DNA of 64,000 nucleotides from Bacilli bacterium (GCA_041652475.1 JBAZHG010000002.1:22591-86590), one strand, 5' to 3'. Numbered from the stretch's first letter, positions 19,644 through 54,108 are shown. A program made the numbers and translations. Notes: generated by a model not told the origin, from the letters alone.

Positions 19644-19787
19644 GGGCGTACCTTCTTTAGATTGATTTCGTCTTGGAAATTATTTTCATTTATATTATAG
19701 GTTCATTTTCACGCCGGGGAAGATTCTATCGGCATATTTACGAAATATATCGTCAAATTGATGTTGTTTTGCGAATAGTCAACGATC

Positions 19788-20537: not shown

Positions 20538-20542
20538 GGAGG

Positions 20543-21502: not shown

Positions 21503-21568
21503 TTAAATAACGCCATTAATCGAGGGATGGCTCATCCATCGTCAAAACGGATGGACGGCCGTCAATCG

Positions 21569-22681
21569 CTAGAGGACTTGGCACGACCCGATGGCGATGC
21601 TCTTCTTAGAAGCGGGATCGAATAAGACAATCGTATCTCCGACGATGTCGAATTGGATTTTTTGGTCGAAGGCATAGTCGACGGCGCCGAATTGGACCGC
21701 CGATAGGATCGTGCTGTCCAAATTGATTTTGACGGTCGTTTCCATGCCGGAGGGAAGCGTCGAATAGGCCAATCCTTCAATCGGGCCGTTTTCCTTGACG
21801 AGCAGGAATTCAGGCCGGATGCCGACGATGACTTGATCCGAGGCCAAATCGATCGGTCCCTTGGACGTGAAATTCACCTTGATGTTCAAGAATTCAAGGG
21901 CGACTTTCCGTTCGGACACCTTCTTGGCTCGAGCCGGGATGAAGTTCATGGTCGGGCTCCCGACGAAATCGGCCACGAAAAGGTTGGCCGGATTATTGTA
22001 AATGGTCAAGGGTTTGTCGTATTGCTGCATCAAACCTTTGTCTAATAGGCACGTCCGGGTGGCCAAGGTCATGGCCTCGAGTTGGTCGTGGGTCACGTAG
22101 ACGAAGGTCGAATCGGTGTCTTTATGGAGCCGTTTGAGTTCGGTCCGCATCTCGCCCCGGAGTTTGGCGTCAAGGTTGGAAAGCGGTTCGTCCATGAAGA
22201 GGACCTGGGGCCGGGGGGCCAAGGTCCGGGCGATGGCGACGCGCTGTTGCTGGCCGCCGCTGATCTCGTTGGGGTAGCGGTTTCGGAATTCTTCGATCCG
22301 AAGGGTCTTCATGACTTCTTCGACGCGGGCATCGATGTCAGCCTTTTTCCATTTGAGGTTTTCAAGCCCGAAGGAAATGTTCTTGTAGACGGTCATGTGG
22401 GGCCAAAGGGCATAATTTTGGAATAAAAAGCCGATGTCCCGCTTGGCCGGGGAAATGTTGACGCCGGTCGTGCTGTCATAGACGATCCGGTCGCCGATGA
22501 CGATCTTGCCTTCGGTCGGGGTCTCGAGGCCGGCAATCATGCGCAGCGTCGTCGTTTTGCCGCAGCCCGACGGGCCCAACAAGGTGACGAATTCGCGATC
22601 TTCGATCACCATGGTCAGGTGGTCGACGGCGACGAAAGAGCCCCATTTCTTGGTAACGTTGATTAATTCGATTTTTGGCAT
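21569..22681 (-). CDS. ABC importer ATP-binding protein (MalK/PotA/FbpC type with C-terminal regulatory/TOBE-like domain)
   Basis: Walker A 'GPSGCGKTT', signature 'ISGGQQQRVAIART', Walker B 'LFMDEPLSNLD', and a ~130-aa C-terminal extension. Confidence 0.9.
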   Translation of the reverse strand: MPKIELINVTKKWGSFVAVDHLTMVIEDREFVTLLGPSGCGKTTTLRMIAGLETPTEGKIVIGDRIVYDSTTGVNISPAKRDIGFLFQNYALWPHMTVYKNISFGLENLKWKKADIDARVEEVMKTLRIEEFRNRYPNEISGGQQQRVAIARTLAPRPQVLFMDEPLSNLDAKLRGEMRTELKRLHKDTDSTFVYVTHDQLEAMTLATRTCLLDKGLMQQYDKPLTIYNNPANLFVADFVGSPTMNFIPARAKKVSERKVALEFLNIKVNFTSKGPIDLASDQVIVGIRPEFLLVKENGPIEGLAYSTLPSGMETTVKINLDSTILSAVQFGAVDYAFDQKIQFDIVGDTIVLFDPASKKSIAIGSCQVL

Positions 22682-22687
22682 GGTTGC

Positions 22688-24568: not shown

Positions 24569-24595
24569 TTATCAATCTCCGCTATTAATATTAAC

Positions 24596-24630
24596 AACGG
24601 GAGAAACCATAGTGATAGATTTCTCCCGTT
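24596..24630 (-). other. Intercistronic stem-loop between binding-protein and permease genes
   Basis: Perfect 11-bp inverted repeat AACGGGAGAAA (24596-24606) / TTTCTCCCGTT (24620-24630) with a 13-nt loop. It lies in the 96-nt gap between the two genes. Confidence 0.5.
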
Positions 24631-24664
24631 TTGAGTCAAAAACGACTAAGTAGCGTGATTCTTA

Positions 24665-25957
24665 TTAAGCTTTGTCGTTGCTGGAAACTAACGCGAGAAT
24701 GGTGTTGATCGTCGCGGCTTTGACGGTGCTTAAGTAAGCAAAGTCTTCGTTGATGGACTTGGCGATCCATTGATCCTTGGTCCAGTCGTTGTCATTGATG
24801 CCAACGGTGGTCGAGGTGCACGGATAGTAATAGCCGTACATGTTGGCGGGATCGCCAGCCTTGTTCGGGGTCGAGGCATTGTAGCACATCGTTTGGTAGC
24901 ATTCCGGCGTCAGTAAGAACCGGGCGTATAAGCAAGCGGTGTACGGGTGGGCGGCGTTCTTGACGATTTGGCTGTACATTGTGTACATGAAACCATTAAA
25001 GCCGTCGATTTCTTTGTCCCAGTCGACCGTGGTCATAGCGCTGACTTGTTCTTCACCGACGGTGAATTTGTTGCCGGCGGCGTCTTTCATCTTGGCAAAG
25101 GCTCCGTAATAAATGAACGGATCGACGCCTTCTTGGGCCGTTTCAAGGAATTGGGTTTCCTTCATCGCGGTGCCGTCGCTGCTGTGCCATCTGGAGATGT
25201 TGGCGATGAATTCATGAACGAATTGTTCGCCACAGGAAGTGTAATCTTCGCTTTCAGCCCAATCGGTTCCGTAATAATTCTCATAAGCGGTTTCCAATCT
25301 GGCTTGGTTCTCATCGGCAAAGAGGCTGAGGATGAACGACATGTTGATTTGTTCGGTAATCGGGCTTTGGAACGACAGGTTGTCGAGGTGTTCGGCATCA
25401 TCAGCCGATCCGGCTAATTGCCAGACGTTGTGAAGGTCGACGCCTAAAGTGCTGTTCGAGAAGAAAATCTTGTTGAAGTGGATTCCCTTGAGCGGATAGG
25501 TGTCGGCTTCGGCCAGGCCAAGCGCTTCGTGGTCGCTCGGGATGTAGTTCAAAGTGATTCCGGCTTCGAGGTAGTCCGCTAAACTGCGGGCGTCTTGCAC
25601 CAGGGCGAAGTCGGCAAAGTAGTTTTCGTCGGCTTGTTCAAGGGCGGTTAAAAGGGCGTAGTCCTTGTAGCTGTTGTTGACGAAAGTGTTGACATCGTAT
25701 TCCATCCATTCATAAGTATCGCAGAATTTTTGGAGGGCCTTGGCCAACGTTGAAGTTAATCCGACGACTTTGAACGTTTGGTCCGAAGCTTCCATTTCGG
25801 CCTGCGAGGCCGCTTCGAGTTCTTCGAGCGTCATTTCGCTGGCTTCGGCTACTTTGGCGGCAGTGGAATCATCGGGAGCTTCCGAAGATCCGCATCCAGC
25901 CAACACGGCCGTCGAGGCGAAAAGGGTCGCACATAAAATCAAAAAGGCTTTCTTCAT
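24665..25957 (-). CDS. ABC transporter substrate-binding lipoprotein (ligand unknown)
   Basis: Lipobox 'AVLAGC' is followed by 'GSSEAPDDS'. At 430 aa it is the first gene of the permease/ATPase operon. I see no ligand-specific motif. Confidence 0.7.
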   Translation of the reverse strand: MKKAFLILCATLFASTAVLAGCGSSEAPDDSTAAKVAEASEMTLEELEAASQAEMEASDQTFKVVGLTSTLAKALQKFCDTYEWMEYDVNTFVNNSYKDYALLTALEQADENYFADFALVQDARSLADYLEAGITLNYIPSDHEALGLAEADTYPLKGIHFNKIFFSNSTLGVDLHNVWQLAGSADDAEHLDNLSFQSPITEQINMSFILSLFADENQARLETAYENYYGTDWAESEDYTSCGEQFVHEFIANISRWHSSDGTAMKETQFLETAQEGVDPFIYYGAFAKMKDAAGNKFTVGEEQVSAMTTVDWDKEIDGFNGFMYTMYSQIVKNAAHPYTACLYARFLLTPECYQTMCYNASTPNKAGDPANMYGYYYPCTSTTVGINDNDWTKDQWIAKSINEDFAYLSTVKAATINTILALVSSNDKA

Positions 25958-26145
25958 GTTTTTACTAATCCTCCCCGGATTCTAGTTTATGAAAATATAT
26001 TACCATGTAGCATATTCATAAACAATATTTTTTTTGTAAGCATTTACATTTTTATATTTTTTTCATTTGTAATATGATAAATGGTAGTATTGTAGTAGCA
26101 ACAAATCCCTGATAGACGGTGGTTTGTCGCCCAAAGGAGCCGTCG

Positions 26146-27087
26146 ATGCCGTTAGTCAATACCATCGAAATGTTGAAGGAAGCCAATCGTCACCACTATG
26201 CCGTTGGCTGTTTCAACGTCGATAGCCTGGCGATGGTTCAAGCGGTTTTATGCGCTGCCGAGGCATCGCGCTCACCCGTGATTTTGTCATTTTCCGCGGG
26301 TTCCCGCGAATTCATGCACCCGGGCAACCTCAAAGCCTTAATCGAGACGGTGGCCCAAGACATCACGATTCCCTACGCCATCCACCTCGACCACGGCAAA
26401 TCGTTTGAAATCTGCCGCGCCTGCATCGACGAAGGTTTCACCAGCGTGATGATCGATGGCTCGGCTCACAGTTTCGAGGAAAACGTCGCCATTACAAAAG
26501 ATGTATGCGCCTATGCGCATGCACGAGGGGTCGCCGTCGAAGGCGAACTCGGAGGCCTTGACGCGATTGATAAAAACGACGGTTCCCATTTTACCAATCC
26601 CGAACAAGCGAAAGAATTCGTCTTGAGAACCGGCGTCGACAGTCTGGCGGTCTCCGCGGGCACCGGCCACGGCACCCAAAAGTTCCGCCCGGGAGAGATA
26701 CCTTCGCTCCGCCTTGACATATTGAAAGCCATCAAGGAACTTCTGCCTGATTTCCCGCTGGTGTTCCATGGTTCAAGCAGTGTGCCCAACGATCTAGTCG
26801 CCCAATTCAACCGCTATGGCGGCCAGCTTCAAGGAGCCGTCGGGATTCCCGAAGAACTCCTGAAAGAAGCCATCGCCATCAACGTCAGCAAGATCAACAT
26901 CGGAACCGATTTCCGGTTAGCCTACGTCGGCGCCTTACGGAAGTCCTTAGCCGAAATCGTCGACCGCTACGAACCGCGTCACTTCTTGGCCCCGGCCCGC
27001 ACCGCGGCTCAGAAACTAGTATCCGACAAAATCAATCGTGTCTTCATGAGCGCTAATCGCGTCGAGACAAACAAATCAAATCACTAA
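26146..27087 (+). CDS. Class II (metal-dependent) ketose-bisphosphate aldolase family protein, paralog 1
   Basis: ATG 26146 lies 6 nt after AAGGAG. 'YAVGCFNV', 'IHLDHGKS', 'GTGHGTQKF' and 'LVFHGSSSVP' retain the class II aldolase Zn and catalytic positions. Confidence 0.85.
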   Translation: MPLVNTIEMLKEANRHHYAVGCFNVDSLAMVQAVLCAAEASRSPVILSFSAGSREFMHPGNLKALIETVAQDITIPYAIHLDHGKSFEICRACIDEGFTSVMIDGSAHSFEENVAITKDVCAYAHARGVAVEGELGGLDAIDKNDGSHFTNPEQAKEFVLRTGVDSLAVSAGTGHGTQKFRPGEIPSLRLDILKAIKELLPDFPLVFHGSSSVPNDLVAQFNRYGGQLQGAVGIPEELLKEAIAINVSKINIGTDFRLAYVGALRKSLAEIVDRYEPRHFLAPARTAAQKLVSDKINRVFMSANRVETNKSNH

Positions 27088-27108
27088 AAGCATAGGGAGG
27101 AAATTGTT

Positions 27109-28047
27109 ATGCCGTTAGTTAATTCCAAAGAGCTGTTTCAAAAAGCCTATCGGGGAGGTTACGCCATTGGCGCTTTCAATGTCGACAACGTCGATATTTT
27201 AAAAGCGGTCCTCAAAGCGGCCGAAAAGACCCAATCGCCGGTCATCATCGCCCTTTCAAGCGGAGCTTTGAACTTCATCGGCAAGGATTTCATCCGGCCG
27301 GTGCTCGACGCCGCCATGAAATCGATTACGGTGCCGGTCGTCCTGCACCTCGATCACGGCAAAACCGTTGAACTATGCAAAGAGTGCGTCGACCTCGGTT
27401 TCACGAGCGTCATGATTGACGCTTCCGCATACGATTTTGAAACCAACATCAAGATGACGCGCGAAGTGGTCGAATACGCCCACGCCCACAACGTCACCGT
27501 CGAAAGCGAGCTTGGGGCTATCGCCGGCATCGAAGAAGATATCCACGTCGATGACAAGTACGGACATTTCACCCATCCATCCGACGTCGTCGAATTCGTC
27601 GGCAAGACCAACATCGACAGCCTGGCCATCGCCATCGGGACCGCCCATGGGGCTTTCAAATTCAAACCGGGTCAAAAACCGCAATTGCGGTTTGACATCC
27701 TGGCTGAAATCGAAGAAAAACTCCCGGATTTCCCCTTAGTGCTCCACGGCGCTTCAAGCGTCCCCAAAGCCTCTTTGGATGTCATCAACCAATACGGTGG
27801 CAAGATGGAAGAAGCCGTTGGTATTCCCGAGCCGATGCTTCGGGAAGCTTCCGAACACGCCATTTGCAAGATCAATGTCGGAACCGACCTACGAGTCGCC
27901 TATGTCGGCGCCTTGCGCAAAGCCCTAGTCGAAAATCCCGAGCAATTCGATGCCCGGATGTTCATTACTCCGTCTCTGGACGCCATCACCGCCCTCGTGG
28001 CCGATAAGATGATCAACGTTTTCGGTTCAGCCGGACACGCGCACTAA
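27109..28047 (+). CDS. Class II (metal-dependent) ketose-bisphosphate aldolase family protein, paralog 2
   Basis: Starts 'MPLVNSKE', like paralog 1's 'MPLVNTIE'. 'YAIGAFNV', 'LHLDHGKT', 'GTAHGAFKF' and 'LVLHGASSVP' are present. GGGAGG lies upstream. Confidence 0.85.
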   Translation: MPLVNSKELFQKAYRGGYAIGAFNVDNVDILKAVLKAAEKTQSPVIIALSSGALNFIGKDFIRPVLDAAMKSITVPVVLHLDHGKTVELCKECVDLGFTSVMIDASAYDFETNIKMTREVVEYAHAHNVTVESELGAIAGIEEDIHVDDKYGHFTHPSDVVEFVGKTNIDSLAIAIGTAHGAFKFKPGQKPQLRFDILAEIEEKLPDFPLVLHGASSVPKASLDVINQYGGKMEEAVGIPEPMLREASEHAICKINVGTDLRVAYVGALRKALVENPEQFDARMFITPSLDAITALVADKMINVFGSAGHAH

Positions 28048-44242: not shown

Positions 44243-46297
44243 TCAAGCGGCGGAATCAAGCATTCCGAAAACCAAGCCCATGTAGCCATCGCCGCCCATG
44301 TTGTAATAAAGATTCAAATAGTCACCCGTAAAGTAGTTGGCATTGCTTGTTGCGTAATACGGTGCCGGCAACTGTGTCAACGGATTAATGACTTCCATGC
44401 CTGAATATCCAGTATAAATACCCATCACGCCATTGGTATCTTGCAAGCGCGGAGCCGCTTTGTCGAAACTTGCGACCGCAGTCATGAATTGGCCTGAGAA
44501 ATCAAGGGCGACGCCGTCGTCAATTTGAAAAGTGCCGTTGATCTTGGTCGAAGAGGGAGCCGACGCGGCGCCGTCTTTGATTAAGCCTACCATATTGAAT
44601 TGAGTGACCGGCTCGCCACCGATGTCATACGTCTTTGTGATGGAATTCGTGCCGAATAGGCGCAAATCGTCGCCTAGGTCTTTGATTGGTCCGATTGCGG
44701 CCGTTGCGGACACGAGCCGGAACCAGTTCTCGCCACCATGAACGAGCGATTCGAGGACTGAATTCTCAACTCTGGTGTGCGGGATATTCCCTTCGGTGCC
44801 GTCGGGACCCGGATTGACGTGATCGGAAATGATGATCGGGCCGCCGGCGCCAATGAATTCGGAATCCTTGATGAGGAAGTCAGGCGAACCCCAGTTATAC
44901 AGCATGCTCGAGAAGGAGTCGTAGCCACGGCATTTTTCGAGTATGACCGTGGGAGCGCTGATCTCGGAGAGGTAAATCGTGAAGCATTGAGTGGCAATCG
45001 CGTTGTAGACCCAGGCATCGACGCTCACCATTTTCATGAAGATGGCGCCGCCGGATTTCTCCGGGTCCTCGGTTCGGTTGGCGTTGCCAACGATGAGAAG
45101 GTTCTTCAAGGTGTAGTCGCCCAGATCTTCGCCGGTTTGTACTGCGCCGGCTTTGATTAAGGTGGAGTGGGAAATGACGAGTCCCGGTTCGGCGTCGACC
45201 CGTCCCGATTCGCGGACGACGACCGGCAAGGTCGAATAGTCGAGGCTGAAGTAGTTGCCGTTGATGGTGAACTCCTCTTCGGGCAGGATGTCGCGATGGT
45301 AAAGGTCGACGTTGTCGCGCAAGGAGCCGTAGACGCGGTCGACGTCCGAATCAGTTGGCAAGACATCGGCATCTCCCGCCATGTAGAAAAAGCTGTCGGG
45401 GAGGTTTTCACGGACAATCTCGATGTCATTTTGGAAAACCAATCCGTTGATGTTTGAAGTTGTCAAACCCTTTTCGGTCCGATAAGCGTCCCAATGGGTT
45501 CCGACGTTGTTGAAAATCGCCAAATCATCTTGTTCGTAAACGTTATGTCCATCGACCACGTTGAATTCGAACGAGGTCATGAACTTGGCTTCGACCGCGT
45601 ATTGGTCGCCGTAAGGACGGACCGAGAGACGGAAGGTGTGCCCGACGGCTGCTTCGGTGAAGTCATAGGTCGACGCGAATTCGTCGATGGCCACCATCTC
45701 GTCGAGAGCACTCCCGGTCAAGGTGACCCATTCGGTCTCGTTTTCCATCTGAACGGTGGACACGCTATGGTAAGAGGTGACTTCGATTTCTTCGTCATCG
45801 CTGTTATAAGCGTAAATGTTCGGGAAGAATTTGAAGGCGTTGTCGTCGCCGACGGCATAGCCTTGCTCACGATCCATGAACTCGCTTCGCTTGTTGCCTT
45901 CGCTCTTCTCGGTGATGTTTTCAAAGTAGGTGGTGACGAAATCGGGAGCCGAGATGTTGTCGATTTCGAAGTATTCGACGACCGTGTAGGTCCAGACGAC
46001 GCTTTCGGTCAAGTAGGTGATTGTCAATTCGAATTCACCGACGGTCGAGGTGTCGAGGGTTTCCGGGGCAAAGGTCAATTCCGATCCTTCGATTGTCTCT
46101 TCGTCGTTTTCGAACGTGGCGGTGACGGTGATCTCGTCGAGGTCGACGACCGCGTTTTGTTCATACTCTTCTTCCAAGCCGGAAACGACTTCGATTGACA
46201 GCAAATCGCCGGGGTCGAACGAGGAGCCTTCGCTTGATGAATTGCATCCGACGAGGGCCAGCGCCAATAATGGGATTATCGCCAAGTATTTTTTCAT
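44243..46297 (-). CDS. 684-aa surface lipoprotein, Ig-like N-terminal domain + probable beta-helix; function unknown
   Basis: Lipobox 'ALVGC' followed by 'NSSSEGSS'. The Ig-like segment is 'ITVTATFENDEETIEGSELTFAPETLDTSTVGEFELTITY'. The later part is Gly/Asn-rich with a beta-strand periodicity. Confidence 0.65.
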   Translation of the reverse strand: MKKYLAIIPLLALALVGCNSSSEGSSFDPGDLLSIEVVSGLEEEYEQNAVVDLDEITVTATFENDEETIEGSELTFAPETLDTSTVGEFELTITYLTESVVWTYTVVEYFEIDNISAPDFVTTYFENITEKSEGNKRSEFMDREQGYAVGDDNAFKFFPNIYAYNSDDEEIEVTSYHSVSTVQMENETEWVTLTGSALDEMVAIDEFASTYDFTEAAVGHTFRLSVRPYGDQYAVEAKFMTSFEFNVVDGHNVYEQDDLAIFNNVGTHWDAYRTEKGLTTSNINGLVFQNDIEIVRENLPDSFFYMAGDADVLPTDSDVDRVYGSLRDNVDLYHRDILPEEEFTINGNYFSLDYSTLPVVVRESGRVDAEPGLVISHSTLIKAGAVQTGEDLGDYTLKNLLIVGNANRTEDPEKSGGAIFMKMVSVDAWVYNAIATQCFTIYLSEISAPTVILEKCRGYDSFSSMLYNWGSPDFLIKDSEFIGAGGPIIISDHVNPGPDGTEGNIPHTRVENSVLESLVHGGENWFRLVSATAAIGPIKDLGDDLRLFGTNSITKTYDIGGEPVTQFNMVGLIKDGAASAPSSTKINGTFQIDDGVALDFSGQFMTAVASFDKAAPRLQDTNGVMGIYTGYSGMEVINPLTQLPAPYYATSNANYFTGDYLNLYYNMGGDGYMGLVFGMLDSAA

Positions 46298-46393
46298 GGT
46301 GCTCTTTCCTTTTATTTTAATATGCTAAAAAGATTATACTCCACTTGCCTTGGTTCGGCTATATTGACCTCACTGGGACCAAATCCCGGAAAA

Positions 46394-46846
46394 TCATATT
46401 TTGGCGCGGATCCGCAGGCGTGACGAGCGGTTGGAGTTGTCGGTCGCCCGCAGGGTGAAAGTCTCGGTCCCTTCCGACAGGAAGCTGATGCGGCCGGTCT
46501 GCCCGTCGACTTGGGCTACCGAACTGTGAGGATCGGTATAGAAACTGATCGTCTGCCGGGTGGCGTCGAAAGGCCACACCTCGTAGATGATGTCGAGGGC
46601 GAGCCCGTCGTGATAACGGAGCGTCAGCGGCGTCCCGGGCTTGTTTTCGTCATACAGCCGGTACAAATCGTCTTCCTCGTCGAAATAGGTCGGGAAATAT
46701 TCGTCGCCGATGCGGAGGCTCGTGATTACGATGTCGTTGACGTAGATCGTTTCGTTATAGATTTCGGCGCGTTGGAAAAGGAGCCCAATCAAGATGACGG
46801 CTAGAAGCGAAATGGTGGAAATGATCAAAATGACGGATTTTTTCAT
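46394..46846 (-). CDS. Small N-terminally anchored protein with Big_2-like Ig domain
   Basis: ATG 46846 lies 1 nt after the upstream stop. The TM helix is 'VILIISTISLLAVILIGLLF'. 'VAQVDGQTGRISFLSEGTETFTLRATD' resembles a Big_2 C-terminal strand pair. Confidence 0.6.
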   Translation of the reverse strand: MKKSVILIISTISLLAVILIGLLFQRAEIYNETIYVNDIVITSLRIGDEYFPTYFDEEDDLYRLYDENKPGTPLTLRYHDGLALDIIYEVWPFDATRQTISFYTDPHSSVAQVDGQTGRISFLSEGTETFTLRATDNSNRSSRLRIRAKI

Positions 46847-46847
46847 G

Positions 46848-48524
46848 TTAGCGCACCGGATCGTAATAATACGCTTTGACTTTGTTGACGAACATGTAGA
46901 CACCCGTGCCGAAGAAAAGCGCCCCGATGATCAAGACCTTGGCAAATGCCGGATTGTAGGACGCTTCCGGCATCACCTGTTCCTCAATCATGAAGCCAAA
47001 GGTGACCATAGCCACCAGGAACGAGACTATGAAGGCGATGACGGTGGCCTTCGTTTCGTTTGGGTTGTTAATTTGATCTCCGGTCGTCGCGTATTGCTCG
47101 TTCTGGGGGTTCATGATGTCGAGCAAGGCCGAAAAAAGGATGTGCCCTACTTGGATGAAGCCCAGGCCCAAGCCCAGGAAGAGGATGTTGGTCAGTTCGT
47201 AATGCATGTGCGCGTCGAAGATGTAGACGGAGACTCCCAGCGAAATCAAGGACAAGACGATATTCGGCAAAATCTTCGCCAATAAGGGAAAGACGATTTT
47301 GATCGGTTTGGTCCGTTTCATGTAACCGACGCGGCCTTCTCTAGAATAAACCGTGGCCAGAATGCTGTTCGAAGCTAAAAGCGGCAAAAGGATGATAAAT
47401 ACGTTAAAAGCCTGCACGATGAATTCGCCGTTGGGGTAGAGATCCATCGAATCGAAAATCTGGTTCAACAACAAAACGATCAAGGGGATGGAAATATACG
47501 TCGCCATAAAATTATAAGCAAACGCGCCCGAGCGCGCGGCGAGGCGGATTTCCTTCACGATGAACGACACGAAAGGCGGCCACGGCCGGTTTTTCGGTTT
47601 TTGGATGCGGATGTTCTTCTCGTATTCGAAACTGCGGCTTGTCATTTTTATGAAATAGAAACGCGAGAGGAAATAGGTCATGAAGAACAGGGCCGCCAAT
47701 ACGGCAATCAATGACAAAAACACCAAGACTGGTTCTTGATGCCAGTAGGTGTAGTGCATTGAAGCGTCGTATTTTCCGATGACCATCACCACGACGTAAT
47801 AAACCGGCAAAAACCACGTTTGAAAGAAGGTGGTGAGGTTGGTCAGCATGTTCTTGATCGGCCCCCAGTAGTTGATAACGTTAATCTCATCGGGAATGAT
47901 TAAAATCAAGCGCACGATCAAGTACACGAACGCGGCCACGAGTAGGGTCGAGAACAAATTCTTGAAAAAGGGCGCCCGGGCAAACAAGCGGTTGATCAAC
48001 AAAACAGGTAACGACAGTACGACCCCAAGGACGACCGGAATCAAAGACACGAACAAGAAGGCGACGAACACCCATAGATAAAACACCCACGAGACCGGGG
48101 ACATGATGCCGTAAGCAATGAAAATCGGTAGCGTAAACGTCACGTTTTTGTAAATTTCATAAATATAGAAAATAATGATTTTCGAGAGGAATATGCGATT
48201 GGCGGATACCGGAAAGGTCACCAATATCTGGTTGTCTTGAGCTAAGTAAAGCGACTGGACAAGCCCGTTCGTGCAGGTGAAGGTCGAAATGACCAGCATA
48301 ATCGAAAGAATCATCGTCATGACCGAAGTCGGCAGATACGGAGAGTTGTGAAAGATTTTTAAAAACGACGCTAAGAAGAATAACCCCAGGGCCACCAAGG
48401 TGACGATGATGAAGCGGAGAACGAAAAAGACGATTCTCCGAATCAGGTTCGCCCGTTCGCGCAAGAAGCCGAAATCGAGCTTGTCGGTCAACTGCATCAT
48501 GACTAAAGTCTTGACGTCGTTCAT
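46848..48524 (-). CDS. Large polytopic ABC-exporter-type permease (about 12 or more TM helices)
   Basis: 558 aa, almost entirely hydrophobic helices. It lies 6 nt downstream of the ABC ATPase fusion gene. I recognise no specific family motif. Confidence 0.65.
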   Translation of the reverse strand: MNDVKTLVMMQLTDKLDFGFLRERANLIRRIVFFVLRFIIVTLVALGLFFLASFLKIFHNSPYLPTSVMTMILSIMLVISTFTCTNGLVQSLYLAQDNQILVTFPVSANRIFLSKIIIFYIYEIYKNVTFTLPIFIAYGIMSPVSWVFYLWVFVAFLFVSLIPVVLGVVLSLPVLLINRLFARAPFFKNLFSTLLVAAFVYLIVRLILIIPDEINVINYWGPIKNMLTNLTTFFQTWFLPVYYVVVMVIGKYDASMHYTYWHQEPVLVFLSLIAVLAALFFMTYFLSRFYFIKMTSRSFEYEKNIRIQKPKNRPWPPFVSFIVKEIRLAARSGAFAYNFMATYISIPLIVLLLNQIFDSMDLYPNGEFIVQAFNVFIILLPLLASNSILATVYSREGRVGYMKRTKPIKIVFPLLAKILPNIVLSLISLGVSVYIFDAHMHYELTNILFLGLGLGFIQVGHILFSALLDIMNPQNEQYATTGDQINNPNETKATVIAFIVSFLVAMVTFGFMIEEQVMPEASYNPAFAKVLIIGALFFGTGVYMFVNKVKAYYYDPVR

Positions 48525-48530
48525 GGATAT

Positions 48531-50753
48531 TTATCCTGCTGTTTGCGGATTCAGGTCGGCCTTTTCTTCTTCGATGACGGCCATCTTCAGATAATAGGCT
48601 TCCAAGGTTCCTTGTTTGTGGACTTCTTCGATTGAAATCGGATCGAACAAATGACCTTTCTTGATGACGACAATGCGGCCGCAGATGTTCTCGACCACGT
48701 CGATGATGTGGCTTGAAAACATGACGATGTTGCCCTTGGCGGCGTGTTGCCGCATGCATTCCTTGACTTGGTAGATGCTGTCGGGATCAAGCCCGGTCAA
48801 AGGTTCGTCCAAGAGCCATAGCTTCGGGTCATGGACCAAGGCGGCGATGATGGTGACTTTTTGCTTGGTTCCGTGCGAATAGGTTTTGATTTGGCTGTCG
48901 AAAACGTCTTCAAGGTGGAAGAGCTTAATATAGTGGGCGATCCGCTCGTTGCGATCGGTCTGGTTGACGCCGTAGATGTCGGCGATGTAGTTGACGTATT
49001 CGCGGGCGCTCAGTTTTTCATACAAAGCGTAGTGGTCGGGGACGTAACCGATCAAGCGTTTGGCTTCGACCGGCTGCTTTTCGACGTCATAGCCGCAGAT
49101 GGAAATCGATCCCTCGGTGATCGTTTGGATGCCGACGATTGATTTGATGGTGGTCGATTTCCCGGCCCCGTTGGGTCCGAGAAAACCAAAAATTTCCCCG
49201 CCGTGGACCACAAGCGAGGCGTCTTTTACTGCAAAGTTCTTATTGCGCCCGTATCGTTTCGAGAAATGTCTGAGTTCGAGCCGGATGCCGACATTAGGTT
49301 CCATGGGTTCTTGTAACCCCCTTCCATTCAAGGCGGCCATTAGGGCCAACCGATTCATCTGGATAGCTTGCTTCCGATGTTTCAAATCCCCGAGCGAATC
49401 GGCCACGTTGAAACCCAGGGTATAGACAAACCACATCGCGAAGGACACGCCGATGTAGACGAATAGAAACATCGTCTGGTAGAGCGGGTGGAATTCGAAG
49501 TCCAGCTCACCGATCGAGAAACTGACCGACAAGTTGAAAATGCGTTCGGCCCAAATGCCGAGCTTATCGACGATGAAGTCGCTGTTGATGAAGAAGAAAT
49601 CGACCGTCGCGTAATTGGAAAACCACACGTTGATGAATAGCACCGACACGAAATAGACCGTGAAGGTCACAAGCGAATAGTACATCTGCTTCATCTGGGG
49701 ACGAGGGAACAGTTTCAGCGCCACCAAAAGCAGCGGCATGAAAAAGGCCATCGAATGGTTGTACCAGAAATGGACGATCAGGTGATTGGTCAGGTTGGTC
49801 GTCTCGGCGTAATTGGGCATCAACATCGCCATCAAGGCCCCAAAGACGTTGATGAAATAAGTGAAATAGAATAGGCGCTTGGCGTTGAAAATCAAGCAAA
49901 TGGGAATCAAGAACATCGCCGTGTTGCAAAGGTGGATCGGCCAAGTCCATGGCGTCAAGAAGTCGGCGTAGGAGTACATACGACAGAAGGTGATCATCGT
50001 GGCGACGCTTAAAAACACCATCGAAAAGCGGATGATTTCCTGATTTTTGTTTCTTAAGGCGAAATACAAGGAAAAAGGGATGATGACCGTCGCATAGATG
50101 AACAGGCGATGGGTTAGACTGATGTCAATGACCTCATAGCGGATGTTGGCGTTCCCGAAGATGATCTGCGGGGCGTAGATCGGCATCGCGGCCAGCAAGA
50201 CCGGGACGATGACGATCAAGAGGTTGATGACTTCATCCTTGGCAATCTTGATTTTAGGGTCGGCTTTCCAAACGAGAAACAGCCCATAAGCCACGAGACC
50301 GGCTTCCAACGCCGTCATGATTGAAGGGATGATGAGCGCCCAACCGACCATCCCGGTCAGTTGCATCGCCGTCGAGTGATAGGAGAACCCGAGATAAATG
50401 GCAAAGGCCGGCGTGAAGACGAACTTCAAAAGGTTGGCGATTGTCTTGACCTTGAAGAACGGGTAGCACATCAGCAAAATCGCCGCGGCCAACTCGAACC
50501 AAATGCCGAGGGTCGCCATCAGGTTGACGGTCGGAGCAAAGGGACCATTTCCCAATCCAATCACATTCAAGGATTGGTCAGAATATGAAAAATACCGAAT
50601 GGCGAAAATCACCATCAGGACAACGGCATAAACTTTGTACTTGGGCACGGTCTTACCCCGGTCGATCGATCGGGAAGTAAGGATGGCTCCGAGACCGGCC
50701 AATAGAAGGGCGATTCCGGCGGAGACTAAGTATATCAATTGTGACCTCTTCAA
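48531..50753 (-). CDS. Fusion protein: polytopic membrane domain containing a TMEM164/YwaF (TIGR02206)-like core + C-terminal ABC ATPase
   Basis: TTG start at 50753. The N-terminal ~490 aa are polytopic. 'TWPIHLCNTAMFLIPICLIF...NVFGALMAMLMPN...HFWYNHSMAFFMPLLLVALKLFPRP' matches my recollection of the YwaF/TMEM164 pattern (P-x-H-L-C ... G-A ... P ... H). The C-terminal ABC domain has 'GPNGAGKST', 'YSHGTKQKVTIIAAL' and 'LWLLDEPLTGLD'. Confidence 0.7.
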   Translation of the reverse strand: MKRSQLIYLVSAGIALLLAGLGAILTSRSIDRGKTVPKYKVYAVVLMVIFAIRYFSYSDQSLNVIGLGNGPFAPTVNLMATLGIWFELAAAILLMCYPFFKVKTIANLLKFVFTPAFAIYLGFSYHSTAMQLTGMVGWALIIPSIMTALEAGLVAYGLFLVWKADPKIKIAKDEVINLLIVIVPVLLAAMPIYAPQIIFGNANIRYEVIDISLTHRLFIYATVIIPFSLYFALRNKNQEIIRFSMVFLSVATMITFCRMYSYADFLTPWTWPIHLCNTAMFLIPICLIFNAKRLFYFTYFINVFGALMAMLMPNYAETTNLTNHLIVHFWYNHSMAFFMPLLLVALKLFPRPQMKQMYYSLVTFTVYFVSVLFINVWFSNYATVDFFFINSDFIVDKLGIWAERIFNLSVSFSIGELDFEFHPLYQTMFLFVYIGVSFAMWFVYTLGFNVADSLGDLKHRKQAIQMNRLALMAALNGRGLQEPMEPNVGIRLELRHFSKRYGRNKNFAVKDASLVVHGGEIFGFLGPNGAGKSTTIKSIVGIQTITEGSISICGYDVEKQPVEAKRLIGYVPDHYALYEKLSAREYVNYIADIYGVNQTDRNERIAHYIKLFHLEDVFDSQIKTYSHGTKQKVTIIAALVHDPKLWLLDEPLTGLDPDSIYQVKECMRQHAAKGNIVMFSSHIIDVVENICGRIVVIKKGHLFDPISIEEVHKQGTLEAYYLKMAVIEEEKADLNPQTAG

Positions 50754-50850: not shown

Positions 50851-50886
50851 CCATAAAGAAAAAGCCAATGGCGAACCATTGGCTTT
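50851..50886 (-). terminator. Rho-independent (bidirectional) terminator immediately after the heliorhodopsin gene
   Basis: Perfect 11-bp stem AAAGCCAATGG (50861-50871) / CCATTGGCTTT (50876-50886) with a 4-nt loop. On the minus strand TTCTTTAT follows. It begins 16 nt after the stop codon. Confidence 0.8.
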
Positions 50887-50902
50887 TTGGGTCATTCGGA
50901 CA

Positions 50903-51721
50903 TTAGCTCGGCTGCATCGCCCCGAAGAGCACCAGCCAGGCGAGGATCGACTTGGCCACGAGCGACAAAATGATGTAAACGCGCTCGCCGTAAAGGTAAT
51001 TTTTCCATTTGCCGACTTGTAGATACTGCAGGATCATATTGATCGGGAAGGTGTTGAAAGCCACGAAGTAGGTGGCCACGATCGCCCAGACAAACCACGG
51101 GACTTGATCGTAGTTGCCGGTTCCCGTCATGTAGATGATGATGACGGCCCACGGCGCCAATCCGGCGATGGTGCCCCAAACGAAAGGACCCCAACGGAGC
51201 TGGGACCTTTCCTTATTGACATTCAGTTGCTCCATCACCAAGCCGAACAAGTTCATGGAGGCGTTGACGATGAAAATCAAAATCAAGGAAGCGATGTCTT
51301 TGACGCCAAACAAGGTGGCAATCAAGACGATCATGATCGAGCTTGAGAAGGCGTACTCGAACCACCGGAATTTGTTGATGCCTTGTTTTAAATCGCGTTC
51401 ATAAATGGCAAAAGTCGGATTGGGAACCGAAATGAGCGCATGGGCCAACGCGGAAAGCAACAAGAACGAGGCGACGAGGATGCCAAAGGGCAGATTAAAC
51501 AAGAATTTTGAATCGACGACAAGGGCTTCGGCAATCGGATCGTAGGTAATGAAGAACTGGACAATCTCGGGTTGGAACTCGGCGATCGTTTGGATCACGG
51601 TTCCGGCTAGGAAGATCATGATGATGCCTTGCAATAGATGGATGGCCCCCATGATCACGTTGAAGCGGCGCAGACGATCTATCTCGGTCGCACCTTTAAA
51701 GAATTGAGAATATTTTCCCAT
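50903..51721 (-). CDS. Heliorhodopsin (7-TM retinal-binding protein, inverted topology family)
   Basis: ATG 51721 is preceded by GGGAGAG. The 272-aa protein has seven hydrophobic helices. 'NKFRWFEYAFSSSIMIVLIA' (counterion Glu122), 'VNASMNLFG', 'KWKNYLYGERVYIILSLVAKSILAW' (Schiff-base Lys257, AAG at 50951-50953), 'MGAIHLLQ' (His28) and 'LSALAHALI' (His94) closely parallel the heliorhodopsin 48C12 sequence as I remember it. Confidence 0.85.
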   Translation of the reverse strand: MGKYSQFFKGATEIDRLRRFNVIMGAIHLLQGIIMIFLAGTVIQTIAEFQPEIVQFFITYDPIAEALVVDSKFLFNLPFGILVASFLLLSALAHALISVPNPTFAIYERDLKQGINKFRWFEYAFSSSIMIVLIATLFGVKDIASLILIFIVNASMNLFGLVMEQLNVNKERSQLRWGPFVWGTIAGLAPWAVIIIYMTGTGNYDQVPWFVWAIVATYFVAFNTFPINMILQYLQVGKWKNYLYGERVYIILSLVAKSILAWLVLFGAMQPS

Positions 51722-51939
51722 ATAAACTCTCTCCCTTATTTTCATAATATATGAAATTATTGAAAAGTGGTACATTGTCCGATATTTCGAATGGGAAAAC
51801 GATTATAATCCGTTTGATAACCTCTCAATGTCGTCGGAGTCATGAATCGAAACGCATATTTTGCTATTGGAACGTCGGCTCTATTATGTATAATAGAACG
51901 AGCGCCCTTTGTTCGGCACTTAAGGATCCGATACCCGCC

Positions 51940-54108
51940 ATGCACCAAACCCTACGCAAATCACTTCTCGGACTCGTCTTGTTATCAACCGTTTTCGCTA
52001 GCGGAGCTTCCGTCTCATTCTTCCATGAAAAACATGCTGAACCACTCACCGTCGAAGCCGCCGTCGGCACCTATTACGACGGCATCAACGATTCATTGAC
52101 CGAAACATCATTATTGAGCGCCCTGCGTAGTTTAAACTCGACCAAACGCACACGTACGGTCGGTTATGACAATATGGATGATTATTATGAGGAAACCGAC
52201 GGGGATCCAAGTAATCAAAATAATCTAATTGCCTTCTACTCTGGCACTTCGGCATATTTCAACGGCAGTTTCAGCAGCGGAAACTTCAACCGCGAGCACG
52301 TCTGGCCCAATTCCCGGGGCGGCAGCGTGGTTGAAGGTGACATCCACATGACGCGCCCGACCTTGGTGGCTGAAAATAGCAGCCGCGGCAACTCCTTTTA
52401 CGTTGAAGGAATGACCAGTTCCACCAGCGGATGGGATCCCGGAGCCGAATCATGGGGTCTCGACAAATACCGAGGCATCGCTGCCCGGATCGTCTTCTAT
52501 GCGGTGGTCGCCAGTTCTACTTTATCACTGGTGGACACCACTAATGACGCTACATCAAACAAAACCATGGGCAAACTCTCGACCTTGCTCGATTGGAACC
52601 TTCGCTATGGCATCGACGCGACTGAAAATCAACGAAACGAGGCGGCCCAAGGAATCCAAGGCAACCGCAATCCCTTCATCGACCACCCCGAGTACGCCTG
52701 CAAGATTTGGGGTTCCTACAATGCGAACACCCAAAGCGTCTGTTCGGCCTCGCAAATTAGCCCGACTTCGATCAGTTTGACCCCGTCGTCGGCCTCGATA
52801 TCCAAAGGTGGGACCCGGCAGTTGTCCGTCAACGTCACCCCGAGCAACGCCGACGCCTCGGTTACTTGGTCGTCTTCGAACACCAACGTGGCCACCGTCT
52901 CTAACGGACTCGTAACCGCCGTAGCCGAAGGTTCGGCCACCATCACGGCCACCTCGACCGTGGATACAGCCATCAAAGGTACCTGCGCCGTCACGGTAAC
53001 CCCGCAAGTCGCCCCAACGTCTTTGACGATGAATAAATCCACGGCGACTATTTCCGTCGGCAATACCACGACTTTGGGCGTGACCGCCTCTCCGGCGGGA
53101 GCCAACAATTCGGTCATCTGGTCGTCTTCGAATACCGGCGTGGCCTTGGTCAACAATGGGGTCGTCTCGGGCATCAGCGAAGGCTCGGCCACGATAACCG
53201 CCACTTCGACCGTTGCCCCATCGGTGTCAGCCACGTCCACCATTACCGTCAATCAAGTCAGCGAAGAAACCACTACTTATACCTTTACCAGCAATAATTG
53301 GAATGCCACCAGCGGCGGGAGTTCCGCCAATTGGTATTCGGGCATGGCTGGCAATTTATTTTTGAACAACGGCGTCCAAGTGTCGACCGGGGTTTCCGGG
53401 GCCTATGCCAACAGCCCGACAACCTTCAGCGATCTGCAGTCGGTTACCATCACCTATTGCACCAACAGCAGCTCTGGCGCCGGCACGATCAATCTCTTTG
53501 CGGTGACGACGGCGACCGCGGCCGCCCAAAGCGGCACCCGAATCGGGACCTCGCAAAGCGTGACCACGTCCGGCGGAACCGCTTCCCGCACCTTGACGTA
53601 CACGCCTTCGGGCATCGGCAACGACGTTTATATCCAAATATACGTGGCGACGACCACCAATTCGATTTACATCCAGCAAGCCACGATCGTGTCCGGAGCC
53701 GAATCGAGCGCCGATCCTCAGGAAGAAGCCACCACCTGGGCGAGCGCTTTCCTGACGCAGACCAATAACGGATGCTCGCTTCAAAGCTACAATATACTTT
53801 CCAACGCCTGGACCGGGGTTTCGAGTAGCTACTCCAGCATGAGCGAAGCCGCCCAAATGATCGTCGAATTGGCCGCGCCTAACGCCGAGGGCACCACGGT
53901 CGAGCACGCCAAAGCCCGCTACTTGATCATCATCGACAAGTACCCGCTCGACGATTTCATCCTCAACTCAGGAAGCAGTTCTTCCCCGGCGATGGTTTAC
54001 GTCCCGGTGGCGACGAGCGCTTTCCTGATATTCGCCTTCTCGGCCTTCGCGTTGAGCTCGCTCGCGGCTTTGATTTGTCTCCAATGCCGTAAACGAAAGG
54101 CCGATTAG
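51940..54108 (+). CDS. Surface-anchored Endonuclease I-family nuclease with two Big_2 domains, a beta-rich domain, a Cys/Trp helical module and a C-terminal TM anchor
   Basis: Start ATG 51940 gives a signal-like 'MHQTLRKSLLGLVLLSTVFASGASV'; ATG 51886 is also possible. The Endonuclease_1 motifs are 'FNREHVWPNSRGG' and 'GNRNPFIDHPEYA'. Two Big_2 repeats are present ('TRQLSVNVTPSNADASVTWSSSNTNVATVSNGLVTAVAEGSATITATS' and its paralog). The terminal helix is 'AFLIFAFSAFALSSLAALICL', followed by 'QCRKRKAD'. Confidence 0.8.
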   Translation: MHQTLRKSLLGLVLLSTVFASGASVSFFHEKHAEPLTVEAAVGTYYDGINDSLTETSLLSALRSLNSTKRTRTVGYDNMDDYYEETDGDPSNQNNLIAFYSGTSAYFNGSFSSGNFNREHVWPNSRGGSVVEGDIHMTRPTLVAENSSRGNSFYVEGMTSSTSGWDPGAESWGLDKYRGIAARIVFYAVVASSTLSLVDTTNDATSNKTMGKLSTLLDWNLRYGIDATENQRNEAAQGIQGNRNPFIDHPEYACKIWGSYNANTQSVCSASQISPTSISLTPSSASISKGGTRQLSVNVTPSNADASVTWSSSNTNVATVSNGLVTAVAEGSATITATSTVDTAIKGTCAVTVTPQVAPTSLTMNKSTATISVGNTTTLGVTASPAGANNSVIWSSSNTGVALVNNGVVSGISEGSATITATSTVAPSVSATSTITVNQVSEETTTYTFTSNNWNATSGGSSANWYSGMAGNLFLNNGVQVSTGVSGAYANSPTTFSDLQSVTITYCTNSSSGAGTINLFAVTTATAAAQSGTRIGTSQSVTTSGGTASRTLTYTPSGIGNDVYIQIYVATTTNSIYIQQATIVSGAESSADPQEEATTWASAFLTQTNNGCSLQSYNILSNAWTGVSSSYSSMSEAAQMIVELAAPNAEGTTVEHAKARYLIIIDKYPLDDFILNSGSSSSPAMVYVPVATSAFLIFAFSAFALSSLAALICLQCRKRKAD

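What the first reader, a model, noticed from the sequence alone, without database searches (positions are those of the whole stretch)
50903..51721. Stand-alone heliorhodopsin gene with every key chromophore residue intact
**Family match.** The 272-aa product has seven hydrophobic helices. It aligns block-for-block with the founding heliorhodopsin (48C12) as I remember it:
- 'NKFRWFEYAFSSSIMIVLIA' vs 'NIFRWVEYSLSSSVMIVLIA'
- 'VNASMNLFG' vs 'VNASMILFG'
- 'KWKNYLYGERVYIILSLVAKSILAW' vs 'KWSNYLRGERAYIVLSLVAKSALAW'

**Key residues.** The Schiff-base Lys (K257, AAG at 50951-50953), the counterion Glu (E122, GAG at 51356-51358) and both signature His residues (H28, H94) are present.

**Transcription unit.** The gene looks monocistronic. 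It has its own GGGAGAG ribosome-binding site and a perfect 11-bp terminator 16 nt after the stop.

**Why it matters.** Heliorhodopsins were described in 2018 and still lack a general function. This one sits in a saccharolytic genome rich in surface lipoproteins, with no retinal-synthesis genes (blh, crtEBIY) in the window. It lies between a surface nuclease gene and an unusual ABC/acyltransferase operon.
Basis: partly seen in the sequence, partly recalled or inferred. Interest (0 to 1): 0.85.

Follow-up and report, generated by a model that had tools for sequence, protein, structure and literature searches.

The report
Ordinary, already annotated heliorhodopsin gene
The gene is a genuine, intact heliorhodopsin (a retinal-binding light-sensor membrane protein) in an uncultured Bacilli bacterium, but the identical protein is already annotated as such in GenBank and nothing about it or its neighbours sets it apart from thousands of known relatives.

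Summary
Window 50903-51721 (-) encodes a 272-aa protein that matches Pfam Heliorhodopsin end to end (318 bits) and NCBIfam's HeR equivalog model (294 bits). An AlphaFold model superposes on solved heliorhodopsins at TM 0.86-0.92. Fifteen of 15 residues of the 48C12 Schiff-base and hydrogen-bond network are identical, including K257, E122, H28 and H94. Lys is on helix 7 and Glu on helix 3. Loop charges (12 vs 2 K+R) predict an N-terminus-inside topology. dN/dS against a 93% relative is 0.04. A strong terminator hairpin follows the stop, so the gene is probably monocistronic.

It is not new. The identical protein is GenBank MFA5235420.1, "heliorhodopsin HeR [Bacilli bacterium]". The closest characterised relative, Trichococcus flocculiformis TfHeR (70% identity), is a non-pumping helper of a photolyase. 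Gene neighbours differ among 86 related loci. The downstream YwaF-ABC cassette occurs in relatives without HeR, so that adjacency is incidental. Missing retinal-synthesis genes are the rule for HeR-only genomes.

Most likely it is a slow-cycling retinal photosensor that regulates a partner encoded elsewhere in the genome; that partner is unidentified. Interest is low.

The parts
50903..51721 (-). Heliorhodopsin coding sequence, 272 aa plus stop. Predicted elements: helices 13-41, 79-98, 117-137, 143-166, 178-200, 209-233 and 242-268; a short helix at 101-112; AB-loop beta-hairpin at 52-76.
   Evidence: - Pfam PF18761, 318 bits, profile positions 1-242 of 242.
- NCBIfam NF038020 equivalog, 294 bits.
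- PDB sequence hits to TaHeR and 48C12, E = 5e-52 and 6e-47.
- AF2 model, mean pLDDT 88.8.
- Foldseek: the top 10 hits are all heliorhodopsins, TMt 0.86-0.92.
50951..50953 (-). AAG codon of K257, the retinal Schiff-base lysine (48C12 K241, TfHeR K249), on helix 7.
   Evidence: Alignment to 6su3. Helix 242-268 in the model. Invariant in 86 relatives.
51356..51358 (-). GAG codon of E122, the Schiff-base counterion (48C12 E107, TaHeR E108), on helix 3.
   Evidence: Alignments. PDB 7clj, which differs from 6is6 by E->D at exactly this aligned column, is the TaHeR E108D mutant. Invariant in 86 relatives.
51729..51735 (-). Shine-Dalgarno-like GGGAGAG, 7 nt upstream of the ATG.
   Evidence: Read from the sequence. 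AAGGAGA is conserved at the same place in L007.
50859..50888 (-). Intrinsic-terminator hairpin: 13-bp perfect stem, UUCG loop, U-rich 3' arm and tail.
   Evidence: RNA fold -21.6 kcal/mol, z = -3.8, 0 of 200 shuffles as stable. Conserved in L007.
51722..51885 (.). Divergent intergenic region between HeR and the nuclease gene. It holds a candidate HeR promoter: TTGAGA at 51823-51828, a 15-nt spacer, and TATAAT at 51802-51807 on the - strand. This is an inference only.
   Evidence: Read from the sequence. Only ATAAT is conserved in L007. The consensus scan did not call this site because the spacer is 15 nt.

Best explanation
**Identity (shown).** The gene encodes a functional heliorhodopsin. It is a seven-helix, N-terminus-inside membrane protein that would bind all-trans-retinal through a Schiff base at K257, with E122 as counterion.

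**Photochemistry (inferred from the family and from the 70%-identical TfHeR).**
- It absorbs green light; TfHeR's ground state is monitored at 544 nm.
- It does not pump ions.
- After photoisomerisation, the Schiff-base proton moves via E122 towards the H94/H28 pair.
- A long-lived (about a second) intermediate changes the cytoplasmic loops.

**Signalling (inferred).** That conformational change modulates a partner protein by direct contact, as shown for three other bacterial HeRs.

**This genome.** The gene is transcribed on its own. The partner is not encoded next to it and is unidentified. The most plausible class is a light- or oxidative-damage response protein encoded elsewhere, such as a photolyase.

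**Chromophore supply.** Retinal is probably scavenged or made from an imported carotenoid or retinol. The lateral fenestration motif that a 2025 preprint links to binding of an external xanthophyll antenna is also present.
For: **Family and fold.**

**Photochemical core.** All 15 residues of the 48C12 Schiff-base and hydrogen-bond network listed in PMC9726877 are identical in the window protein by the 6su3 alignment:

| 48C12 | window |
|---|---|
| N16 | N21 |
| H23 | H28 |
| Q26 | Q31 |
| S76 | S90 |
| H80 | H94 |
| Y92 | Y107 |
| R104 | R119 |
| E107 | E122 |
| Y108 | Y123 |
| S111 | S126 |
| E149 | E164 |
| E230 | E246 |
| S237 | S253 |
| K241 | K257 |
| W246 | W262 |

All 15 are also invariant in the 44-sequence alignment.

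**Topology.** 12 K+R lie on the N-terminal-side loops and 2 on the other side.

**Selection.** dN/dS = 0.04 against L007. dN is 0.10-0.19 against more distant relatives, where synonymous sites are saturated or nearly so.

**Closest characterised relative.** TfHeR is 70% identical, has no ion pumping, and binds and stimulates a photolyase (PMC9769723).

**Recurrent neighbours of this HeR clade elsewhere.** Class-2 CPD photolyase occurs in 16 of 86 loci. Others are MsrB, TspO, a tocopherol-cyclase-like protein, DUF2238, an SDR-like cluster and an old-yellow-enzyme-type (Oxidored_FMN) reductase. This agrees with the light and oxidative-stress switch proposal of Bulzu et al..

**Own transcription unit.**

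**Fenestration motif.** F180, T184, G187, F222, N223 and P226 match Cv06 F212, C216, G219, F254, N255 and P258.
Against: - No partner is identified.
- No photolyase, and no homologue of any recurrent HeR neighbour, is in the 64-kb window.
- Two of the three TfHeR residues reported as important for photolyase binding differ: E97->A105 and K227->Q235. Q235 is the same substitution as the binding-dead K227Q mutant. These positions also vary among photolyase-linked HeRs, except that 235 is K or R in 16 of 16.
- No retinal source is visible in the window.
- Many relatives come from MAGs whose names suggest dark, anaerobic reactors and sediments (Bulzu et al.), which makes a purely light-driven role less obvious.
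- Pigment formation and the photocycle are not tested.
Confidence: 0.75

Rival explanations
1. The HeR light-modulates the downstream YwaF(TMEM164)-ABC fusion and its cassette (window 44243-50753). This would be analogous to OcHeR up-regulating the OmrDE ABC exporter.
For: - The ABC gene is the immediate same-strand downstream neighbour, 149 bp away.
- The arrangement nuclease / HeR / YwaF-ABC is also present in L007, whose HeR is 93% identical.
- There is a precedent for HeR-ABC regulation (PMC11109279).
Against: - A strong terminator, conserved in L007, separates the two genes, and a promoter-like site precedes the ABC gene.
- Relatives with 82-85% identical HeRs have entirely different downstream genes.
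- The four-gene cassette is conserved at 63-72% identity in other Bacilli MAGs, with RNase HII or a metallo-beta-lactamase-fold gene upstream instead of HeR.
- In MAG JBAZED01, HeR (L011) and the cassette (L087) are on different contigs.
- The ABC system is of a different type from OmrDE.
Confidence: 0.06
2. It is a TfHeR-type helper of a class-2 CPD photolyase that is encoded elsewhere in the genome, broadening and boosting photorepair.
For: - TfHeR is the closest characterised homologue, at 70% identity (PMC9769723).
- Photolyase is the single most frequent neighbour in this HeR clade, in 16 of 86 loci across Trichococcus, Peloplasma, Acholeplasmataceae and Erysipelothrix.
Against: - There is no photolyase in the window.
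- None of the ten loci whose HeR is most similar to the window's (76-100% identity) has a photolyase nearby; among those with long flanks are L003, L006, L008 and L009.
- Q235 replaces the K/R found in all 16 photolyase-linked HeRs, and A105 replaces TfHeR E97.
Confidence: 0.15
3. It is an ion-transporting heliorhodopsin, a light-gated proton conductance like the viral V2HeR3.
For: The fold and counterion are shared with the transporting viral HeRs (PMC12873467, abstract seen).
Against: - Bacterial HeRs tested so far, including the 70%-identical TfHeR, show no ion transport (PMC11109279).
- The protein carries the fenestration motif that the transporting viral subfamily is reported to lack.
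Confidence: 0.03
4. It has a light-independent or relic role. The organism lives in the dark without retinal, and the opsin either serves another purpose (for example a structural or lipid-related one) or is decaying.
For: - No retinal genes are in the window.
- Many relatives are from digesters, sludge and sediments.
- A dark function has been reported for a proteorhodopsin (PMC10730872, abstract seen).
Against: - Strong purifying selection (dN/dS 0.04).
- Invariance specifically of the chromophore and proton-relay residues in 86 relatives argues that the retinal photochemistry itself is under selection.
- HeRs are reported to capture exogenous retinal efficiently.
Confidence: 0.05

Closest known systems
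TfHeR, Trichococcus flocculiformis heliorhodopsin (Shim et al. 2022, PMC9769723)
   Same: - 70% identical over 261 aligned residues.
- Same clade of Bacillota HeRs.
- Identical Schiff-base Lys, counterion Glu and both His residues.
- Same length class and loop architecture.
   Different: - TfHeR sits in an operon with a class-2 CPD photolyase and DUF2238. The window gene is alone, and no photolyase is within 64 kb.
- The TfHeR binding residues E97, R162 and K227 correspond to A105, K170 and Q235 here.
48C12, the founding heliorhodopsin (PDB 6su3, 6su4, 6uh3)
   Same: - 39-41% identity; TMt 0.86-0.89.
- 15 of 15 hydrogen-bond network residues are identical.
- Same fenestration positions.
   Different: - The AB loop and the 4-5 loop differ in length.
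- P226 replaces A210 at the fenestration, as in Cv06.
- The source is an uncultured Bacilli bacterium.
TaHeR, Thermoplasmatales archaeon heliorhodopsin (PDB 6is6, 7clj, 7u55)
   Same: - Best PDB sequence hit (E = 5e-52) and best structural hit (TMt 0.92, 42% identity).
- E122 aligns with the E108 position mutated in 7clj.
   Different: - TaHeR is archaeal.
- Its AB loop is 7 residues shorter.
- Y164 replaces F at the fenestration.
OcHeR-OmrDE, heliorhodopsin that up-regulates a heterodimeric ABC multidrug exporter (Cho et al. 2024, PMC11109279)
   Same: A heliorhodopsin lies next to an ABC-transporter gene on the same strand.
   Different: - OcHeR is predicted to be co-transcribed with OmrDE. 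Here a terminator intervenes.
- The ABC protein here is a YwaF/TMEM164-NBD fusion with a PF16949 partner.
- The adjacency is not conserved.
AbHeR-glutamine synthetase (Cho et al. 2022, PMC9529153)
   Same: Same family. Same proposed mode of action: light-dependent regulation of a partner enzyme through cytoplasmic contacts.
   Different: AbHeR is actinobacterial and shares an operon with GS. No GS gene is near the window HeR.

Membership tests
Heliorhodopsin (Pfam PF18761 / NCBIfam NF038020) | Significant full-length match to the family profile, above the curated cut-off | tested here: met
   PF18761: 318.2 bits against a cut-off of 26.7, covering profile positions 1-242 of 242. NF038020 equivalog: 294.5 bits against a cut-off of 100.
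Heliorhodopsin (Pfam PF18761 / NCBIfam NF038020) | Seven transmembrane helices with the retinal Schiff-base Lys on helix 7 | tested here: met
   The AF2 model has seven long helices, and K257 lies in helix 242-268. K257 aligns with 48C12 K241. Foldseek TMt is 0.86-0.92 to solved HeRs.
Heliorhodopsin (Pfam PF18761 / NCBIfam NF038020) | Single Glu counterion on helix 3 (48C12 E107 / TaHeR E108) | tested here: met
   E122 lies in helix 117-137. It aligns with E107 and with the residue changed in the TaHeR E108D structure 7clj.
Heliorhodopsin (Pfam PF18761 / NCBIfam NF038020) | Inverted topology: N-terminus cytoplasmic, C-terminus outside | tested here: met
   By the positive-inside rule, 12 K+R lie on the N-terminus, 2-3, 4-5 and 6-7 loops, against 2 on the opposite side. 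This is a prediction, not an experiment.
Heliorhodopsin (Pfam PF18761 / NCBIfam NF038020) | Long extracellular AB-loop beta-hairpin | tested here: met
   Strands 52-61 and 66-76 lie between helices 1 and 2 in the model.
Heliorhodopsin (Pfam PF18761 / NCBIfam NF038020) | His pair and the polar hydrogen-bond network around the Schiff base (N16, H23, Q26, S76, H80, Y92, R104, Y108, S111, E149, E230, S237, W246 in 48C12) | tested here: met
   All are identical in the window protein and invariant in 44 relatives.
Heliorhodopsin (Pfam PF18761 / NCBIfam NF038020) | Binds all-trans-retinal, slow photocycle, no ion pumping | not testable with these tools
   This needs expression and spectroscopy. It is inferred from TfHeR at 70% identity.
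Heliorhodopsin (Pfam PF18761 / NCBIfam NF038020) | Host is a monoderm (distribution rule of Bulzu et al.) | tested here: met
   The identical protein is deposited from a Bacilli MAG. The closest relatives are Bacilli, Izemoplasmatales and other Bacillota.
Photolyase-helper HeRs (TfHeR type) | Class-2 CPD photolyase in the same operon or neighbourhood | tested here: not met
   tblastn with 16 clade photolyases against the window gave nothing better than E = 0.17. There is no PF00875 hit among the window ORFs.
Photolyase-helper HeRs (TfHeR type) | Cytoplasmic-loop residues E97, R162 and K227 needed for photolyase binding | tested here: inconclusive
   The window has A105, K170 and Q235. K or R at position 235 holds in 16 of 16 photolyase-linked HeRs, but the other two positions vary among them.
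ABC-transporter-linked HeRs (OcHeR type) | Co-transcription with the ABC transporter genes | tested here: not met
   A terminator hairpin lies between the genes, and it is conserved in L007. The cassette occurs without HeR in L087 and L088.
Carotenoid-site ('two-antenna') HeRs, preprint 10.1101/2025.11.27.691015 | Opposing aromatics at 48C12 positions 162 and 206, Gly at 169, non-bulky residues at 166 and 210, and Asn at 207 | tested here: met
   The window has F180, F222, G187, T184, P226 and N223 by the 6su3 and 9vfc alignments. Actual carotenoid binding is untested, both here and in the preprint, where it rests on docking only.

The most novel reading that the evidence does not exclude
In this lineage (the window organism and L007), a recent rearrangement placed the heliorhodopsin directly upstream of the YwaF/TMEM164-ABC envelope cassette. 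The HeR has since acquired the lineage-specific Q235 change in the 6-7 cytoplasmic loop. It could have been recruited as a light switch for a lipid- or envelope-remodelling ABC system, which would be a new partner class for HeRs. Alternatively, the clade's abundance in dark anaerobic reactors could reflect a light-independent role.
Probability: 0.07. Interest if true: 0.5.

Novelty: already known. Interest (0 to 1): 0.15.

Why it matters
It matters little beyond correct annotation. The gene adds one more intact, stand-alone heliorhodopsin from an uncultured Bacilli bacterium to a family with thousands of catalogued members, and the exact protein is already named in GenBank.

Its only modest value is as an example of the majority class of HeRs that have no adjacent partner gene. 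For that class the physiological target is still unknown. It is also one more data point for the unexplained abundance of this HeR clade in anaerobic, presumably dim habitats.

Tried and rejected
1. **Conserved gene neighbourhood.** I compared 86 loci (the window, 6 exact-match contigs and 80 species-representative genomes) by ORF clustering. No neighbour of the window HeR recurs except in the same species and in L007.
2. **HeR linked to the YwaF-ABC cassette.** I searched the fusion protein (more than 800 homologues) and inspected the contexts of 72% and 63% relatives. The cassette is conserved but HeR is absent. Rejected as incidental adjacency.
3. **Photolyase-partner signature.** I mapped TfHeR E97, R162 and K227 across the clade. 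Only position 235 (K/R) tracks photolyase adjacency, and phylogenetic non-independence makes even that weak.
4. **Consensus terminator scan.** It missed the hairpin; direct folding showed it.
5. **Promoter.** No consensus sigma-70 site was called upstream of HeR. The TTGAGA-15-TATAAT candidate is only partly conserved in L007.
6. **The window's own long contig and habitat.** Exact look-ups of BipA and of the JGI call of the fusion protein found nothing. A literature search for the sample and protein accessions found nothing.
7. **RNA elements.** An Rfam gathering-threshold scan and a tRNA scan of the window found nothing.

Full report

Yes. On the minus strand, an ORF ends at 50903. It has in-frame starts at 51775 and 51721. 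The 272-aa product from 51721 is the form found in databases and in all close homologues.

- The start is preceded by GGGAGAG (51729-51735) at a 7-nt spacing.
- The K257 and E122 codon coordinates are correct.
- The hairpin after the stop codon has a 13-bp perfect stem and a UUCG loop. Its free energy is -21.6 kcal/mol (z = -3.8), and none of 200 shuffles folds as well.
- The consensus terminator scan missed the hairpin, probably because the A/U extension of the stem uses up the T-run. The hairpin is conserved in the 93%-identical relative L007.

**2. What is it?**

It is a heliorhodopsin, beyond reasonable doubt.

*Profile and sequence evidence*
- Pfam PF18761 matches at 318 bits over the entire model.
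- NCBIfam's equivalog model NF038020 matches at 294 bits.
- The only PDB sequence hits are heliorhodopsins: TaHeR at 5e-52, the eukaryotic Cv06 (9vfc) at 2e-50, and 48C12 at 6e-47.

*Structure*
- An AlphaFold2 model built on 44 homologues has mean pLDDT 88.8.
- It shows seven long helices plus the AB-loop beta-hairpin typical of the family.
- Foldseek returns ten heliorhodopsin chains at TMt 0.86-0.92. Scores then drop sharply to type-1 rhodopsins at TM of about 0.55-0.6.

*Helix placement*
- K257 lies in helix 7 (242-268) and aligns with 48C12 K241.
- E122 lies in helix 3 (117-137) and aligns with 48C12 E107. It also aligns with the single position that differs between PDB 6is6 and the TaHeR E108D mutant 7clj.

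*Hydrogen-bond network*
- I mapped all 15 residues treated as the Schiff-base and hydrogen-bond network of 48C12 in PMC9726877.
- These are N16, H23, Q26, S76, H80, Y92, R104, E107, Y108, S111, E149, E230, S237, K241 and W246.
- All are identical in the window protein (N21, H28, Q31, S90, H94, Y107, R119, E122, Y123, S126, E164, E246, S253, K257, W262).
- All 15 are invariant among 44 aligned relatives. H28, H94, E122 and K257 are also invariant in all 86 loci.

*Topology and selection*
- Loop charges give 12 K+R on the N-terminal side and 2 on the other. This predicts the inverted, N-inside topology.
- The gene is under strong purifying selection. dN/dS is 0.04 against L007, and synonymous sites are saturated or nearly so against more distant relatives while dN stays at 0.10-0.19.
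- It is single-copy in the window.

**3. Whose gene is it, and is it already known?**

- The identical protein is GenBank MFA5235420.1, "MAG: heliorhodopsin HeR [Bacilli bacterium]". It is also present in JGI and Logan assemblies.
- 4,921 database clusters match it at E <= 1e-10.
- Relatives at 69-93% identity occur in many MAGs and isolates. These include Bacilli, Izemoplasmatales, Acholeplasmataceae, Trichococcus, Christensenellaceae and Anaerolineaceae.
- This corresponds to the HeR clusters of anaerobic Firmicutes and Chloroflexota from sediments and sludge described by Bulzu et al..

**4. Surroundings**

*Upstream.* A divergent gene encodes a secreted Endonuclease_1 + Big_2 protein. Its start is at 51886.

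*Downstream.* After the terminator and a 149-bp spacer comes a 740-aa YwaF/TMEM164 + ABC-NBD fusion on the same strand. It is followed by a PF16949 protein, a small ORF, a Big_3 protein, an acyltransferase and an esterase.

*Is this context meaningful?* I tested it against 86 loci.
- Only the same species (L001, L002) and L007 share it.
- Relatives with 82-85% identical HeRs have quite different flanks. L003/L004/L005 and L008 have a TetR regulator. L006 has a cold-shock-protein gene and a large Big_2 surface-protein gene.
- The four-gene YwaF-ABC cassette is conserved at 63-72% identity in other Bacilli MAGs, with RNase HII or a metallo-beta-lactamase-fold gene upstream and no HeR.
- In MAG JBAZED01, HeR and the cassette are on different contigs (L011 and L087).
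- The adjacency is therefore a lineage-specific accident of rearrangement, not an operon.

*Recurrent neighbours of this HeR clade elsewhere*:
- class-2 CPD photolyase, in 16 of 86 loci;
- DUF2238 and a Cdd1/HhH protein;
- MsrB, TspO and a tocopherol-cyclase-like protein;
- an SDR-like cluster and an old-yellow-enzyme-type (Oxidored_FMN) reductase.

These overlap the neighbour groups catalogued by Cho et al. 2024 and the oxidative-stress theme of Bulzu et al.. None has a homologue in the window.

*Retinal genes.* Pfam scans of the 44 large window ORFs found no carotenoid or retinal enzyme, no photolyase and no other rhodopsin; 8 of those ORFs had no Pfam hit at all. This is expected. Only 1 of 381 HeR-only genomes had the complete retinal pathway.

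**5. How it most likely works**

*Shown here:* an intact retinal pocket, counterion, proton-relay network, fold, predicted topology, purifying selection and a separate transcription unit.

*Inferred from the family and from TfHeR* (70% identical; no ion pumping, ground state monitored at 544 nm, O decay of about 1 s):
1. The protein binds scavenged all-trans-retinal.
2. It absorbs green light.
3. It passes the Schiff-base proton via E122 towards H94 and H28.
4. It enters a long-lived state in which its cytoplasmic face alters the activity of a bound partner. This has been demonstrated for glutamine synthetase, photolyase and an ABC exporter (PMC9529153, PMC9769723, PMC11109279).

*The partner here is unknown and unlinked.*
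- A photolyase elsewhere in the genome is the best specific guess.
- That guess is weakened by Q235, which is the same change as the binding-dead TfHeR K227Q. All 16 photolyase-linked HeRs in my set keep K or R at that position.
- It is also weakened because none of the ten loci whose HeR is most similar to the window's has a photolyase nearby.

*Carotenoid antenna.* The protein carries the full lateral-fenestration motif (F180, T184, G187, F222, N223, P226). A 2025 preprint interprets this motif as a site for an exogenous xanthophyll antenna and finds it in 91% of HeRs. That idea is compatible with the sensor model, and it is untested.

**6. Comparison with the known, and novelty**

- The protein passes every sequence- and structure-based defining feature of the heliorhodopsin family.
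- It fails the operon criterion for the photolyase-linked and ABC-linked functional subgroups.
- It belongs to the majority (about 61%) of HeR genes reported as not co-transcribed with a neighbour.
- The exact protein is already deposited and correctly named, and it has no unusual residue, domain or context. It is therefore "already known".

**7. Verdict**

The significance is overstated: interest is 0.15 rather than 0.85.

The most novel reading still open is recruitment of this HeR as a light switch for the adjacent YwaF-ABC envelope cassette, or a dark function. I put it at about 7%, and it would be moderately interesting if true.

Noticed in passing
window 44243-50753 (-); L087 6001-12526; L088 6001-12571: A YwaF/TMEM164 (PF14808) membrane domain fused to an ABC nucleotide-binding domain heads a conserved four-gene cassette. 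The other members are a PF16949 'ABC_tran_2' protein of about 560 aa, a protein of about 160 aa, and a protein of about 690 aa (Big_3 in the window). More than 800 database homologues share the same Pfam pair, in Bacilli and Clostridia MAGs. The function is unknown. In the window only, an acyltransferase and an esterase follow.
   Followed up: partly
L017, L039, L048 (all on contig CAXXXL010000003.1, 804-864 kb); L014 and L019 (MAG JAAYJD01): One Christensenellaceae genome carries three heliorhodopsin paralogues within about 60 kb. A Clostridiaceae MAG carries two. This suggests HeR gene-family expansion in some anaerobic Bacillota.
   Followed up: no
L013 (2.6 kb), L016 (8 kb), L079 (24 kb): HeRs 66-73% identical to the window protein lie on contigs binned as Verrucomicrobiota, Desulfovibrionaceae and Sumerlaeota, which are diderm phyla. 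This is either mis-binning of short contigs or horizontal transfer, and it bears on the 'monoderm-only' rule.
   Followed up: no
window 18747-27087 versus L006 1-8186: In the 82%-identical relative L006, the HeR sits 2-10 kb from a block of genes: sugar-ABC permease and ATPase, an RDD protein, Y_phosphatase3, an RpiR regulator and fructose-bisphosphate aldolase. In the window the same block lies about 25-30 kb from HeR. The HeR locus has been rearranged among close relatives.
   Followed up: partly
window 26119-28047 (+): Two tandem class-II fructose-bisphosphate aldolase family paralogues (322 and 312 aa) sit next to the sugar-transport cluster.
   Followed up: no
window 51016-51018 (codon of Q235, - strand): Q235 in the 6-7 cytoplasmic loop is nearly unique among the 86 related HeRs; it is otherwise seen only in L071, and L007 has K. 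It corresponds to TfHeR K227, whose K227Q mutant loses photolyase binding.
   Followed up: partly
window 51751-54108 (+): The longest ORF of the divergent nuclease gene (785 aa) overlaps the HeR 5' region. The likely true start is the ATG at 51886 (MYNRTSAL...). This matches the 740-aa gene call on L001 and the block conserved in L007.
   Followed up: yes
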